A stretch of 64,000 nt of DNA from NCBI RefSeq assembly GCF_000026545.1, contig NC_011601.1. One strand, 5' to 3'. Shown here piece after piece: positions 29,401 through 32,400 of the stretch. Position 1 is the stretch's first letter. Each line of letters starts with the position of its first letter. The position numbers are program-made. Source of the stretch: Escherichia coli O127:H6 str. E2348/69. Its GTDB lineage: Bacteria; Pseudomonadota; Gammaproteobacteria; Enterobacterales; Enterobacteriaceae.

Positions 29401-32400
29401 GCCGTTGATTGCGGATGTGCGTGCGCGTCTGCAATCGCAGCAGAAATACATTCGTGGTCTGTTCTGCGGCGGTACGCTGTGTGACGAAACCCTGTTCGCG
29501 GTGATGGAAAAACATGGCGATGTCTACAGCAATATCCAGCCCGATCCTGAATTCCGCCTGCAAGATATCAACCGCAGCATCAAACACACCTTCCTCGATT
29601 TTGGCGATGATGACTTCACCAACGGCAAGCCGCATCCAATGATTGACCCGACCAACCGTATCAGCCGCTTGATCGAAGAAGCGCGCGATCCAGAAGTGGC
29701 GGTGATCGTGATGGATTTTGTGCTCGGATTTGGATCGCATGAAGATCCGGTCGGTTCCACCATCGAGGCGATCAAAGAAGCGAAAGCGATCGCCGCTGCC
29801 GAAGGACGCGAGTTGATCATTCTCGCCTATGTGCTGGGCACCGATCTCGATACGCCATCATTAGAACAACAAAGCCAGATGCTGCTTGATGCCGGAGTGA
29901 TTCTGGCGAGCAGCAGCACCAATACCGGATTGCTGGCGCGTGAATTTATCTGCAAAGGGGAGGAAGCCTGATGAGCCAGTCACTGTTTAGCCAACCGTTG
30001 AACGTTATTAACGTCGGTATCGCCATGTTTAGCGATGATCTGAAAAAGCAGCATGTAGAAGTGACCCAACTCGACTGGACGCCGCCGGGGCAGGGCAATA
30101 TGCAGGTGGTGCAGGCACTGGACAACATTGCCGATTCGCCGCTGGCGGACAAAATCACCGCCGCTAACCAGCAGGCGCTGGAGCGCATTATCCAGTCGCA
30201 TCCGGTGCTGATTGGTTTTGATCAGGCGATTAACGTGGTGCCGGGCATGACGCCGAAAACCATTCTTCACGCCGGGCCGCCGGTCACCTGGGAAAAAATG
30301 TGCGGCGCGATGAAAGGCGCGGTCACCGGAGCGCTGGTGTTTGAAGGACTGGCGAAAGATCTCGACGAGGCGGCTGAGCTGGCGGCTTCCGGGGAGATCA
30401 CCTTCTCGCCGTGCCACGAGCACGACTGTGTGGGATCGATGGCGGGCGTCACCTCGGCCTCGATGTTTATGCACATCGTGAAAAACAAAACCTATGGCAA
30501 CGTCGCTTATACCAACATGAGCGAGCAGATGGCGAAGATTTTGCGTATGGGCGCTAACGACCAGAGCGTGATCGACCGCCTCAACTGGATGCGCGATGTG
30601 CAGGGACCCATGCTGCGCGACGCGATGAAAATTATCGGCGAAATCGATCTGCGCTTAATGCTGGCGCAGGCGCTGCATATGGGCGATGAATGCCATAACC
30701 GCAATAACGCCGGGACGACGCTGCTGATTCAGGCGCTGACGCCGGGGATTATTCAGGCAGGTTATTCCGTCGAGCAACAGCGCGAAGTGTTTGAGTTTGT
30801 CGCCAGCAGCGACTACTTCTCCGGCCCGACGTGGATGGCGATGTGTAAAGCGGCGATGGATGCGGCGCACGGCATCGAATACAGCACCGTGGTGACCACC
30901 ATGGCGCGTAACGGCGTCGAGTTCGGCCTGCGGGTCAGCGGCCTGCCGGGGCAGTGGTTTACCGGCCCGGCGCAGCAGGTCATCGGCCCGATGTTTGCCG
31001 GTTATAAGCCGGAAGATTCAGGGCTGGATATTGGCGACAGCGCCATCACCGAAACCTACGGTATCGGCGGATTTGCGATGGCGACCGCGCCCGCGATCGT
31101 CGCGCTGGTGGGTGGCACGGTGGAAGAGGCTATCGATTTCTCCCGTCAGATGCGTGAAATCACCCTTAGCGAAAACCCCAACGTCACCATTCCGCTGCTC
31201 GGTTTTATGGGCGTTCCGTCGGCAATCGACATCACCCGCGTGGGTAGCAGCGGCATTCTGCCAGTGATCAACACCGCCATCGCCCATAAAGATGCGGGCG
31301 TCGGCATGATTGGCGCGGGCATTGTGCATCCACCCTTCGCCTGCTTCGAGAAAGCCATTCTCGGCTGGTGCGAACGTTACGGCGTCTGAGTTACATGTTT
31401 ATGCCGGATGCGACATGAATGTCTTATCCGGCCTACGAATGGCGCGGAAATCTGTAGGCCTGATAAGCGTGGCGATTCAGGCATTGGCCACCACAGCCGG
31501 ATGCGGCGTGAACGCCTTATCCGGCCTACGAGTGGCGCAAGAATCTGTAGGCCTGATAAGCGTAGCGCATCAGGCATTGGTCACCACAGCCGGATGCGGC
31601 GTGAACGCCTTATCCGGCCTACGAATGGCACGGGAATCTGTAGGCCTGATAAGCATAGCGCATCAGGCAGTCTGGCGTTGGTCATAACCCCATCACCCTC
31701 TGTCGCGGACATAACAACATGAAAGAACTTGTGGTCGTTGCCATTGGTGGCAACAGCATTATCAAAGATAACGCCAGCCAGTCGATTGAGCATCAGGCGG
31801 AGGCGGTGAAAGCCGTGGCCGATACGGTGCTGGAAATGCTGGCTTCCGATTACGACATTGTGCTGACCCACGGCAACGGGCCGCAGGTCGGGCTGGATTT
31901 ACGCCGCGCGGAGATTGCCCACGAGCGCGAAGGGCTGCCCTTAACGCCGCTAGCGAACTGTGTGGCGGATACGCAAGGTGGCATTGGCTATCTGATCCAG
32001 CAGGCGCTGAACAACCGACTGGCGCGTCACGGCGAGAAAAAAGCCGTCACCGTGGTGACTCAGGTGGAAGTGGATAAAAACGATCCGGGGTTTGCCCATC
32101 CCACCAAGCCCATCGGCGAATTCTTTAGTGAAAGCCAGCGTGACGAACTACAAAAGGCAAACCCTGACTGGCGTTTTGTTGAAGATGCCGGACGGGGCTA
32201 TCGCCGCGTGGTCGCCTCGCCGGAACCGAAACGTATTGTCGAAGCACCAGCCATTAAGGCGCTGATCCAACAAGGCTTTGTGGTGATTGGCGCGGGCGGC
32301 GGCGGAATTCCGGTAGTGCGTACTGACGCGGGGGATTACCAAAGCGTGGACGCGGTTATCGACAAAGATCTCTCTACCGCGCTACTGGCTCGCGAAATTC

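What the first reader, a model, noticed from the sequence alone, without database searches (positions are those of the whole stretch)
31400..31675. Triplicated BIME inside the yah operon, between yahG and yahI
About 275 bp between two apparently co-oriented operon genes is filled by three tandem ~90-bp units of paired REP palindromes. Such intra-operon BIMEs can stabilise upstream mRNA, attenuate downstream transcription, or bind DNA gyrase/IHF, and could decouple yahDEFG expression from yahIJ. The tandem triplication also marks the site as recombinogenic; I recall K-12 annotating a small ORF (yahH) here, which would then be an artefact of the REP sequence.
Basis: partly seen in the sequence, partly recalled or inferred. 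Interest (0 to 1): 0.3.

Follow-up and report, generated by a model that had tools for sequence, protein, structure and literature searches.

The report
Known REP array between yahG, yahI
The 267-bp stretch between yahG and yahI in E. coli E2348/69 is three tandem copies of a common bacterial palindromic repeat pair (the element K-12 calls REP23); it is a documented, strain-variable element that probably tunes mRNA stability and read-through, and the "yahH" gene annotated on it is almost certainly not a real gene.

Summary
Window 31403-31669 holds 2.9 copies of a 93-bp unit. Each unit is a Y-type REP, a 17-nt linker, an inverted Z1-type REP and a 12-nt linker. It sits in the 329-bp spacer between yahG and yahI of E. 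coli E2348/69.

It is the strain's allele of K-12 "REP23". By published definitions it is an "atypical BIME": Y+Z1 units, short linker, tandem copies. It is not a BIME-2 and not the IHF-binding BIME-1, and it has no IHF consensus.

Copy number is highly polymorphic. A spread sample of 57 chromosomes gave 0, 1, 2, 3, 4 and 5 pairs in 8, 26, 3, 2, 16 and 2 strains. 655 of 5,426 genomes carry a REP-free spacer.

The yahH ORF is a by-product:
- 93 nt is 31 codons, and 3 of 6 frames lack stops.
- K-12 yahH and the "translated" EHEC X002/yahH are in different frames.
- ORF length and C-terminus change with copy number and 1-nt linker indels.
- There is no Shine-Dalgarno sequence and no coding constraint.

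The most likely function is inferred from REP325, which was tested experimentally: an RNA hairpin array that protects upstream yahDEFG mRNA and attenuates read-through into yahIJ. Other genera carry unrelated hairpins in the same slot.

The element is already known and of low interest.

The parts
29971..31389 (+). yahG CDS (YlbE/AllG-family, DUF1116); stop codon TGA at 31387-31389
   Evidence: ORF list; RefSeq annotation of the identical E2348/69 record
31390..31402 (+). 13-nt left flank between the yahG stop and the first REP stem (gttacatgtttat). Some strains have a 23-nt variant instead.
   Evidence: The distance of 13 nt is within the 15-nt limit reported for REP-induced ribosome stalling (secondary citation).
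31403..31436 (+). Y-type REP, copy 1. A variant with two compensatory base-pair changes (G-C to A-T at pairs 11-20 and 13-18).
   Evidence: It folds into the same hairpin as the consensus, -17.9 kcal/mol, z -6.2.
31437..31453 (+). 17-nt short tail-to-tail linker of unit 1 (S-type position)
   Evidence: This is the most variable part of the unit, with 7 of 17 columns variable.
31454..31483 (+). Z1-type REP, copy 1, inverted orientation (starts with GTAGG); 3 mismatches to consensus
   Evidence: hairpin -11.6 kcal/mol
31484..31495 (+). 12-nt head-to-head linker (ttggccaccaca)
31496..31529 (+). Y-type REP, copy 2 (exact consensus)
   Evidence: hairpin -21.3 kcal/mol, z -4.9
31530..31546 (+). 17-nt linker of unit 2
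31547..31576 (+). Z1-type REP, copy 2 (exact consensus), inverted
   Evidence: hairpin -12.9 kcal/mol
31577..31588 (+). 12-nt head-to-head linker (ttggtcaccaca)
31589..31622 (+). Y-type REP, copy 3 (exact consensus)
31623..31639 (+). 17-nt linker of unit 3
31640..31669 (+). Z1-type REP, copy 3 (1 mismatch), inverted
31670..31682 (+). 13-nt right flank (gtctggcgttggt), present only in REP-containing alleles
   Evidence: Comparison of filled and REP-free alleles
31683..31718 (+). 36-nt yahI leader, shared by REP-free and REP-containing E. coli alleles and recognisably conserved in Kluyvera, Klebsiella, Raoultella, Citrobacter and Enterobacter. It has no strong Shine-Dalgarno sequence.
31719..32669 (+). 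yahI CDS (carbamate kinase family)
31415..31687 (+). PGAP 'hypothetical protein' (90 aa), a translation of the REP array in the same frame as K-12 yahH b0322. Judged a by-product ORF.
   Evidence: Annotation (locus 5416-5688 = window 31415-31687); frame analysis; no family above cut-off
31408..31722 (+). Second stop-free frame through the array (104 aa, MRHECLIRPT...). Its ATG lies inside the first REP stem and its TGA overlaps the yahI ATG (ATGA). This is the frame of the EHEC 'X002/yahH' ORF. Judged a by-product ORF.
   Evidence: Neuhaus 2016

Best explanation
This is the E2348/69 allele of the E. coli repeat cluster that K-12 annotation calls REP23. It is an 'atypical' bacterial interspersed mosaic element made of three tandem pairs of a Y-type and an inverted Z1-type REP palindrome. 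It sits in the spacer between yahG and yahI inside the yahDEFG-IJ gene string.

Shown here: the anatomy, membership of the REP family, the stability of the hairpins, copy-number polymorphism of 0-5 pairs between strains, and the lack of any conserved ORF.

Inferred from experiments on the analogous six-pair array REP325 in the yjdMN operon, and from classical REP work:
- When the operon is transcribed on the + strand, the six stable RNA hairpins block 3'-to-5' exonucleases. This protects the upstream yahDEFG segment.
- The 329-nt untranslated structured spacer gives partial, partly Rho-dependent attenuation. Less transcript therefore reaches yahIJ.
- Because the first stem begins 13 nt after the yahG stop codon, it may also stall terminating ribosomes on yahG.
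- Copy number changes by in-register unequal recombination between units, and probably sets the strength of these effects.

The annotated 'yahH'/hypothetical ORFs are a mechanical consequence of a GC-rich 93-nt (31-codon) unit with three stop-free frames.
For: Anatomy and family:
- The array and its units were mapped.
- The Y and Z1 consensus sequences recur elsewhere in the window (47828-47907; 54998-55031). Shuffles give 0 expected matches.
- The array matches a median of at least 28 places per E. coli genome.
- Type assignment: Nunvar 2010 names the 37-nt unit Z2, and I found that unit in REP325. The 30-nt unit here is therefore Z1. BIME class definitions come from Ton-Hoang 2012.

Hairpins:
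- Y folds at -21.3 kcal/mol. The variant Y folds at -17.9 kcal/mol into the identical structure through two compensatory pairs.
- Z1 folds at -11.6 to -12.9 kcal/mol.

Operon context:
- No sigma-70-like promoter and no intrinsic terminator were found on the + strand of the spacer.
- yahI has no strong Shine-Dalgarno sequence.

Polymorphism:
- Spacers of 95, 143/152, 235/246, 329, 421/422 and 514 bp correspond to 0-5 pairs.
- Sample frequencies in 57 chromosomes were 8, 26, 3, 2, 16 and 2.
- The REP-free allele occurs in 655 genomes.
- Alleles differ by whole units in register.

Functional analogy:
- Deleting REP325 raises the downstream gene about 8-10-fold and lowers the upstream gene 3-fold or more.
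- That attenuation is partly bicyclomycin-sensitive.
- Genome-wide, REP-containing tandem gene pairs show a higher upstream/downstream expression ratio.

Cross-genus support:
- All 13 REP-free or non-Escherichia yahG-yahI spacers carry an unrelated strong hairpin in the same position (MFE -16 to -87 kcal/mol).
- Some of these have U-rich tails.

ORF as by-product.
Against: - No expression data for this locus were available, so the stabiliser/attenuator role is by analogy only.
- The array is oriented opposite to REP325 relative to transcription. It uses Z1 rather than Z2 and has half as many pairs.
- The preprint itself reports that 2-4-hairpin fragments showed no detectable Rho dependence, and that REP effects are strongly context-dependent.
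- The + strand transcript is not C-rich (C/G 0.95).
- 12% of genomes lack the element and most carry only one pair. Any effect is therefore dispensable.
- Ribosome footprints reported on the EHEC array would, if genuine, mean the spacer is not untranslated. That would weaken Rho-dependent attenuation.
Confidence: 0.6

Rival explanations
1. Neutral or selfish passenger. The array is a non-autonomous element spread and amplified by the REP-associated transposase (RAYT/TnpA-REP) and by unequal recombination. It is tolerated in a permissive intergenic site, and any effect on yah expression is incidental and not selected.
For: - Copy number ranges from 0 to 5, and a REP-free allele occurs in 655 of 5,426 genomes.
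- Linker sequence and copy-number variation at a locus is a general BIME property linked to TnpA-REP activity.
- Gene-conversion-like changes were seen at yahG/yahI in an evolution experiment.
- In BL21(RP) a rearrangement junction lies inside the array.
Against: - Every genus examined keeps some strong hairpin at this junction, although the sequences are unrelated. This suggests the slot itself is constrained.
- The variant Y REP keeps its hairpin through two compensatory pairs.
- This rival is compatible with the main explanation, because origin and effect are separate questions.
Confidence: 0.3
2. The hairpin region is the end of a yahDEFG transcription unit, and yahIJ is transcribed from its own promoter in or near the conserved leader. 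On this reading the array is a 3'-UTR element rather than an intra-operon one.
For: - The 36-nt leader upstream of yahI is conserved across genera and contains an ATAAT/ATAAC motif about 30 nt before the ATG.
- In Citrobacter and one Raoultella the hairpin is followed by a U-rich tail, like an intrinsic terminator.
Against: - The consensus scan found no + strand promoter in the window spacer.
- A -35 element would have to lie in the non-conserved hairpin segment.
- Neuhaus et al. treat yahD-yahJ as one operon.
- The homologous all-region genes encode one pathway (PGAP names AllH/FdrA/AllG family plus carbamate kinase).
Confidence: 0.15
3. DNA-level role. The Y REPs act as preferred DNA gyrase binding and cleavage sites, forming a topological buffer between transcribed segments.
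For: - Gyrase cleavage sites are over-represented in BIME-2 and fall mostly in Y-type REPs, independently of transcription.
- This array has three consensus-type Y REPs.
Against: - Only a subset of BIMEs is cleaved.
- The text-held supplements of the Topo-seq paper do not mention yahG, yahH or yahI. This is weak negative evidence, because sites may be listed by coordinate.
- The array uses Z1 rather than Z2.
- Strains with 0 pairs are common.
Confidence: 0.15
4. yahH is a genuine translated gene, giving the 'triple function' locus of Neuhaus et al. (DNA element, RNA element and protein).
For: - Ribosome footprints cover the 465-nt EHEC ORF X002 (RPKM 56, coverage 0.61, RCV 0.64).
- In the window allele that frame ends in ATGA, overlapping the yahI start.
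Against: - K-12 yahH and X002 are different reading frames.
- Three of six frames of the unit are stop-free.
- The ORF is 42 to 154 aa long, switches frame at 1-nt linker indels, and is absent in 0-pair strains.
- The start codon lies inside the REP stem with no Shine-Dalgarno sequence.
- Substitutions are 4 synonymous to 15 nonsynonymous in one frame and 7 to 12 in the other, including a nonsense change. The four compensatory stem changes alter amino acids in both frames.
- No MS peptides were listed for X002.
- No Pfam or NCBIfam family scored above cut-off.
- Footprint reads of about 30 nt cannot be placed uniquely in a sequence present at 28 or more places per genome. Stable hairpins can also survive nuclease digestion.
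Confidence: 0.05
5. The array encodes naRNA4-like nucleoid-associated RNAs that bind HU and condense DNA.
For: Rfam naRNA4 (RF02564) matches above its gathering score at 31550-31619 (71.8 bits) and 31457-31526 (59.9 bits).
Against: - The above-threshold matches are on the - strand, which has no known transcription.
- On the transcribed + strand the scores (55.9 and 45.8) are below the 59.5 cut-off.
- The model in effect recognises any Y/Z REP pair.
- The 2026 follow-up from the same laboratory finds that REP325/naRNA4 does not measurably compact the nucleoid.
Confidence: 0.03

Closest known systems
REP23 / yahH locus of E. coli K-12 and the X002 locus of EHEC EDL933
   Same: It is the same chromosomal site, with the same Y and Z1 units, the same linkers and the same flanks. 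K-12 has 4 pairs and O157 has 5. It has already been described as a BIME carrying a dubious ORF.
   Different: The window allele has 3 pairs. Its first Y is a compensated variant. All linkers are 17 nt, so the MRRERLIRPT-type frame runs to an ATGA overlap with yahI. In K-12 and O157 it shifts frame at a 16-nt linker instead.
REP325 (BIME-2) in the yjdM-yjdN operon, source of naRNA1-6
   Same: It is a tandem array of Y plus Z palindromes between two co-oriented genes of one operon, with short 12- and 17-nt linkers. It has been shown experimentally to stabilise the upstream mRNA and to attenuate downstream transcription in a partly Rho-dependent manner.
   Different: REP325 uses the 37-nt Z2 unit (period 100) and has six pairs. 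It is oriented the other way round relative to transcription. The function of the yah array is untested.
BIME-1 (RIB/RIP elements)
   Same: It contains one Y and one Z1 palindrome in inverted orientation.
   Different: BIME-1 occurs as a single copy with a long L linker carrying an IHF site. The yah array has a 17-nt linker, no IHF consensus and 0-5 tandem copies.
malE-malF intercistronic REPs (classical REP mRNA stabiliser)
   Same: They are REP hairpins in an intercistronic spacer that give higher expression of the upstream gene by blocking 3'-5' decay. This rests on established knowledge, summarised.
   Different: It is a different operon with a different number of REPs. No decay data exist for yah.

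Membership tests
REP / palindromic unit (E. coli Y and Z1 types) | 30-40-nt imperfect palindrome able to form a stable stem-loop | tested here: met
   All six units fold as hairpins, -11.6 to -21.3 kcal/mol, z -2.3 to -6.2
REP / palindromic unit (E. coli Y and Z1 types) | Conserved GTAG/CTAC tetranucleotide at the foot of the stem | tested here: met
   Every Y ends in ...GGCCTAC and every Z1 starts with GTAGGCC.... The feature is described.
REP / palindromic unit (E. coli Y and Z1 types) | High-copy, dispersed, extragenic | tested here: met
   Median of at least 28 matching places per genome in 5,425 of 5,426 genomes. There are further copies in the window at 47828-47907 and 54998-55031. The array lies between the yahG stop and the yahI start.
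BIME (any class) | REPs in alternating orientation separated by short conserved linkers | tested here: met
   The pattern Y> 17 nt <Z1 12 nt is repeated three times
BIME-1 | Y + Z1 as a single pair with a long L linker carrying an IHF site | tested here: not met
   The Y+Z1 composition is met. However, the linker is 17 nt, there is no WATCAANNNNTTR match in the array, and there are 0-5 tandem copies. Definition.
BIME-2 | Y + Z2 units | tested here: not met
   The second unit is the 30-nt type. Z2 is the 37-nt type according to Nunvar 2010, and that type is seen in REP325.
BIME-2 | Multiple tandem copies with short S linker; copy number varies between strains | tested here: met
Atypical BIME | Chimeric combination of BIME-1 and BIME-2 motifs (here Z1 with a short linker) occurring in multiple tandem copies | tested here: met
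naRNA4 (Rfam RF02564) | Covariance-model score at or above the gathering threshold on the transcribed strand | tested here: not met
   The + strand scores 55.9 and 45.8 against a cut-off of 59.5. Only the - strand passes, at 71.8 and 59.9.
naRNA4 (Rfam RF02564) | HU binding / nucleoid association of the RNA | not testable with these tools
   This needs RIP or EMSA. The nucleoid role of the family is itself disputed.
Protein-coding gene (yahH) | The same reading frame conserved across strains | tested here: not met
   K-12 yahH and EHEC X002 are different frames. ORF length runs from 42 to 154 aa. The frame switches at 16-nt linkers, the ORF is split in strain GDSC2227PM, and it is absent in 0-pair strains.
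Protein-coding gene (yahH) | Excess of synonymous over nonsynonymous change; ribosome-binding site | tested here: not met
   Synonymous to nonsynonymous counts are 4:15 and 7:12, with one nonsense change. There is no Shine-Dalgarno sequence, and the start codons lie inside the REP stem.
Protein-coding gene (yahH) | Direct evidence of a protein product | tested here: inconclusive
   Ribosome footprints were reported in EHEC, but no MS peptides, and the region is multi-copy. No Pfam or NCBIfam family scores above cut-off.
Intrinsic (Rho-independent) terminator | GC-rich hairpin followed by a U tract | tested here: not met
   No + strand terminator-like site was found in 30900-32200
REP-mediated ribosome stalling (Liang, Rudd, Deutscher 2015) | REP stem begins within 15 nt of the stop codon | tested here: met
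   The stop codon ends at 31389 and the stem starts at 31403, leaving 13 nt between them. The rule is quoted. The effect itself could not be tested. Some strains have a 23-nt flank.

The most novel reading that the evidence does not exclude
The yahG-yahI junction may be a selected 'hairpin slot'. Across Escherichia, Kluyvera, Klebsiella, Raoultella, Citrobacter and Enterobacter it always carries a strong GC-rich palindrome, but of unrelated sequence families. In E. coli the slot is filled by a REP array whose copy number (0-5 pairs) and 1-nt linker indels could act as an evolvable dial on the yahDEFG:yahIJ expression ratio. In alleles like this window's, one stop-free frame runs from inside the first REP to an ATGA overlap with the Shine-Dalgarno-poor yahI start. 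Occasional translation of the array could therefore both suppress Rho attenuation and couple yahI translation.
Probability: 0.15. Interest if true: 0.4.

Novelty: already known. Interest (0 to 1): 0.12.

Why it matters
Mostly it matters for annotation hygiene.
- The 'protein YahH' and hypothetical-protein calls that PGAP still places on this array are translations of a repeat. They appear in two different frames in different strains and should not be treated as genes.
- Rfam-based pipelines will call 'naRNA4' here on the untranscribed strand.

Biologically, the locus is a clean natural allelic series of 0-5 pairs at one site, within an otherwise conserved operon. It could be used to test how REP copy number scales mRNA stabilisation and attenuation. 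The operon encodes an oxamate-carbamoyltransferase-like complex plus carbamate kinase. No new kind of element is involved.

Tried and rejected
1. I first labelled the array BIME-2 (note 1). I rejected this after finding that the literature's Z2 is the 37-nt unit. The array is Y+Z1.
2. IHF binding: there is no consensus site in the array, and only two sites in the whole window, both elsewhere.
3. I tested the idea that the REP-free allele carries another dispersed repeat (Box-C-like). Its 81-nt spacer is single-copy in E. coli, at 1 place per genome in 655 genomes. Similar CCCTCTCCC...GGGAGAGGG hairpins do occur in the Kluyvera and Klebsiella spacers.
4. naRNA4 membership: above threshold only on the non-transcribed strand.
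5. Protein-family searches of both array translations and of K-12 YahH found nothing above cut-off. A near-threshold SidA hit (33.5 vs 35 bits) is a short repeated hydrophobic match.
6. Locus-specific data were sought in supplements. The gyrase Topo-seq supplements do not mention yahG/H/I. The REP preprint supplement gave only a yahG differential-expression row and no REP23 entry.
7. The Liang et al. 2015 primary paper could not be retrieved, so I used a secondary citation.
8. The promoter/terminator consensus scan found nothing on the + strand of the spacer.
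Full report
**Source and context**

The window is E. coli E2348/69: a 1,101-bp query around the finding matches NZ_CP059840.2 at 100%. The annotated genes around the finding are yahD, yahE, fdrA/yahF, yahG, a 'hypothetical protein', yahI, yahJ and yahK, all on the + strand. In window coordinates, yahG is 29971-31389 and yahI is 31719-32669. The spacer between them is 329 bp.

**The observation**

Tandem Repeats Finder reports a single array at 31403-31669 with period 93, 2.9 copies, 90% matches and score 436. The repeat finder places three in-register copies.

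Each unit dissects as follows:

| Part | Length | Sequence or note |
|---|---|---|
| First palindrome | 34 nt | GCCGGATGCGGCGTGAACGCCTTATCCGGCCTAC |
| Linker | 17 nt | variable |
| Second palindrome, inverted | 30 nt | GTAGGCCTGATAAGCGTAGCGCATCAGGCA |
| Linker | 12 nt | |

Neither consensus is expected by chance: 0 matches in 100 shuffles. Both recur elsewhere in the window, at 47828-47907 and 54998-55031. The array sequence matches a median of at least 28 places per genome in 5,425 of 5,426 complete E. coli genomes, and that count is limited by a cap.

**Which kind of REP cluster**

The 34-nt unit is the Y type. I first called the 30-nt unit Z2, but this was wrong.
- Nunvar et al. 2010 identify the 37-nt GTAGG..GATAAGACGCG..CGTCGCATCAGGCA unit flanking the E. 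coli RAYT gene as Z2.
- The same 37-nt unit is what I find in REP325, which Qian et al. 2015 describe as Y+Z2. REP325 has period 100 and six pairs.
- The 30-nt unit is therefore Z1.

Ton-Hoang et al. 2012 give the class definitions:
- BIME-1: Y+Z1, single copy, long L linker with an IHF site.
- BIME-2: Y+Z2, tandem copies, short S linker.
- Atypical BIME: chimeric combinations in multiple copies.

The yah array has Y+Z1, a short linker and tandem copies, with no IHF consensus. It is an atypical BIME. In K-12 it is annotated as REP23.

**Structure**

As RNA on the + strand:
- The consensus Y folds at -21.3 kcal/mol (z -4.9).
- The Z1 units fold at -11.6 to -12.9 kcal/mol.
- Y/Z1 pairs can alternatively form a long composite hairpin of -38.5 kcal/mol.
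- The whole spacer folds at -142 kcal/mol (z -3.5).

The first Y differs from consensus at four positions. These form two compensatory pairs (11-20 and 13-18, G-C to A-T) and leave the predicted structure unchanged.

**Variation between strains**

Nine sequenced alleles have spacers of 95, 143, 152, 235, 246, 329, 421, 422 and 514 bp. These correspond to 0, 1, 1, 2, 2, 3, 4, 4 and 5 Y-Z1 pairs, and the alleles differ by whole units in register.

A flank-only query returned 57 chromosomal loci spread evenly down the ranking of 5,048 locus-positive genomes:

| Pairs | 0 | 1 | 2 | 3 | 4 | 5 |
|---|---|---|---|---|---|---|
| Loci | 8 | 26 | 3 | 2 | 16 | 2 |

- The triplicated allele is a minority form. 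It is shared with RM14723 and SYNB1934.
- Other sampled strains differ from E2348/69 in pair number. 536 has 2 pairs and an ST131 strain has 1. From my own knowledge, these belong to phylogroup B2, as does E2348/69.
- The REP-free spacer is a single-copy sequence present in 655 genomes.
- Maddamsetti and Lenski list yahG/yahI among putative gene-conversion sites in an evolution experiment.
- In BL21(RP) a junction with a phage-tail pseudogene lies inside a linker of the array.

The 'recombinogenic' claim is well supported.

**The yahH question**

K-12 still carries yahH (b0322, 339769-340089) on the array. PGAP places a 90-aa hypothetical protein at window 31415-31687.

- The unit is 93 nt, or 31 codons, and three of its six frames have no stop. 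Long ORFs through any multi-copy array are therefore automatic.
- Two + strand frames are open. One reads AGCGVNALSGLRMA.... The other reads RMRRERLIRPTNGA....
- K-12 yahH and the E2348/69 annotation use the first frame.
- The 465-nt 'X002 = yahH' ORF, which Neuhaus et al. 2016 report as covered by ribosome footprints in EHEC, uses the second. It switches frame at a 16-nt linker.
- Across strains the ORFs range from 42 to 154 aa, end at three different places and are split in one strain. PGAP annotates none in the nine fetched loci with two pairs or fewer; one one-pair strain in the sample (H57) does carry a YahH call.
- The start codons lie inside the first REP stem, with no Shine-Dalgarno sequence.
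- Among 18 distinct units, 18 columns vary: 7 of 34 in Y, 7 of 17 in the linker and 4 of 30 in Z1.
- Synonymous to nonsynonymous counts are 4:15 in one frame and 7:12 in the other, including a nonsense change. Three units carry a frame-shifting 1-nt deletion.
- No Pfam or NCBIfam family scores above cut-off.

The published footprints are real data. However, X002 has no MS support in that paper's table. The authors themselves note the 'very regular' repeat-shaped signal. Reads of about 30 nt cannot be placed uniquely in such sequence. I judge yahH a by-product ORF, with about 5% left for genuine translation.

**How it most likely works**

- No promoter-like or terminator-like site lies on the + strand of the spacer.
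- yahI has no strong Shine-Dalgarno sequence.
- The flanking genes belong to one pathway, going by the PGAP names AllH/FdrA/AllG family plus carbamate kinase.

yahI is therefore probably expressed by read-through.

The best experimental analogue is REP325, a Y/Z array between two co-oriented operon genes. Harris et al. (2026 preprint) show the following:
- Deleting it raises the downstream gene about 8-10-fold and lowers the upstream gene 3-fold or more.
- It yields a ladder of hairpin-ended transcripts.
- It is partly bicyclomycin-sensitive.
- Genome-wide, REP-containing tandem gene pairs have higher upstream/downstream expression ratios.

By inference, the yah array protects yahDEFG mRNA from 3'-exonucleases and attenuates transcription into yahIJ, with strength depending on pair number.

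The first stem starts 13 nt after the yahG stop. This is inside the 15-nt range reported to stall terminating ribosomes (secondary citation; the primary paper was not retrievable). Some strains have a 23-nt flank instead.

There are caveats:
- The yah array is oriented opposite to REP325 relative to transcription. It uses Z1 and has fewer pairs.
- Short REP fragments showed no Rho dependence.
- The transcript is not C-rich.
- No expression data for this locus were found.

**Outgroups**

A degenerate pattern for the YahI N-terminus retrieved 65 loci. In 17 of them yahG lies directly upstream.
- E. albertii and E. whittamii carry Y/Z1 pairs. In E. albertii the duplicated segment includes 47 nt of the yahG 3' end.
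- Kluyvera, Klebsiella, Raoultella, Citrobacter and Enterobacter carry unrelated GC-rich palindromes in the same position. These include their own GTAG...CTAC REP pairs, CCCTCTCCC/GGGAGAGGG hairpins and simple stem-loops, some with U-rich tails.
- These hairpins have MFE -16 to -87 kcal/mol.
- A recognisably conserved yahI leader of about 36 nt always follows.

This suggests the junction is a long-standing hairpin site, and that the E. coli BIME is its current occupant. I had no control set of other intergenic spacers, so this remains a suggestion.

**Other readings**

- Gyrase prefers Y REPs in BIME-2. No locus-specific evidence was found.
- The Rfam naRNA4 hits pass threshold only on the untranscribed strand. 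The nucleoid role of that family is now disputed.

**Verdict**

The element is a documented, ordinary member of a well-known repeat class.

The small additions here are:
- the correct subtype;
- the allele spectrum;
- the demonstration that the two published 'yahH' ORFs are in different frames;
- the cross-genus hairpin slot.

Novelty: already known. Interest: low.

Noticed in passing
L007 591-685 (E. coli EP91A); same allele in 655 genomes: A REP-free yahG-yahI spacer of 95 bp carries a unique, single-copy 11-bp-stem hairpin (CCCTTCTCCCTTCAGGGGAGAGGGG, -19.5 kcal/mol) instead of the BIME. It replaces the BIME and both of its short flanks, so it is not a simple empty site.
   Followed up: yes
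L017 (Escherichia albertii), the 315 bp upstream of the match at 3794-3834 (- strand): The spacer contains two Y-Z1 pairs separated by a duplicated copy of the last ~47 nt of yahG plus the 23-nt left flank. The duplication therefore has a different register from the 93-bp unit seen in E. coli.
   Followed up: partly
L010 1400-1680 (E. coli BL21(RP)): yahG and everything upstream are missing. A truncated phage tail-tip pseudogene abuts the array, with the junction inside a 17-nt linker (…ctc|aagaatctGTAGG…). The BIME appears to have been a rearrangement breakpoint.
   Followed up: partly
window 31683-31718: The 36 nt upstream of the yahI ATG (cATAACcccATCACCcTCTGt.gCGGAcAtaACAac) is recognisably conserved across six genera, although it lacks a clear Shine-Dalgarno sequence. 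Its role (weak RBS, promoter -10, or processing site) is unknown.
   Followed up: partly
L049/L051 (Kluyvera sichuanensis, K. ascorbata) and L069 (Raoultella sp.), spacers upstream of the YahI match: These species have their own species-type REP pairs (e.g. GTAGCCCGGGCGAGGCGTTTACGCC… …GGCCGGGCTAC) at the same yahG-yahI junction. Different REP families have occupied the slot independently.
   Followed up: partly
window 47828-47907 and 54998-55031: There is another single Y-(16 nt)-Z1 pair on the + strand and a solitary Y REP on the - strand. Their flanking genes were not examined.
   Followed up: no
L011 1053-1629 (mhpE-mhpT) and L012 1144-1659 (yjjW-yjjV): Both loci hold large tandem arrays of Y plus the 37-nt Z2-type unit (period ~101, 4-5 pairs). 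These are canonical BIME-2-like arrays and were the best non-yah matches to the query.
   Followed up: partly
one search hits H99, H100 (plasmids NZ_CP160109.1, NZ_OZ282437.1): Parts of the yah cluster (carbamate kinase; DUF1116 protein) occur on large plasmids. 120 plasmid places matched the flank-only query.
   Followed up: no
window 31415-31684 translation; K-12 YahH (L014 6770-7087): The REP-array translation scores just under the NCBIfam cut-off for 'cell division inhibitor SidA' (33.5 and 32.5 bits vs 35) through three short repeated matches. This is a potential source of false annotation on REP-derived ORFs.
   Followed up: no
L022 (MAG 'uncultured Pseudocitrobacter sp.') and L027 (Pseudocitrobacter faecalis DSM 27453): L022 carries an E. 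coli-type two-pair allele with 99% YahG identity, suggesting mis-binning or recent transfer. L027 has a mixed array: Y, a 37-nt Z2-type unit, a truncated Y and a Z1.
   Followed up: no
window 34277-34351 and 36104-36347 (from L001 8278-8352 and 10105-10348): PGAP marks a 75-bp partial 'hypothetical protein' pseudogene between yahJ and yahK. It also marks a frameshifted yahM in E2348/69.
   Followed up: no
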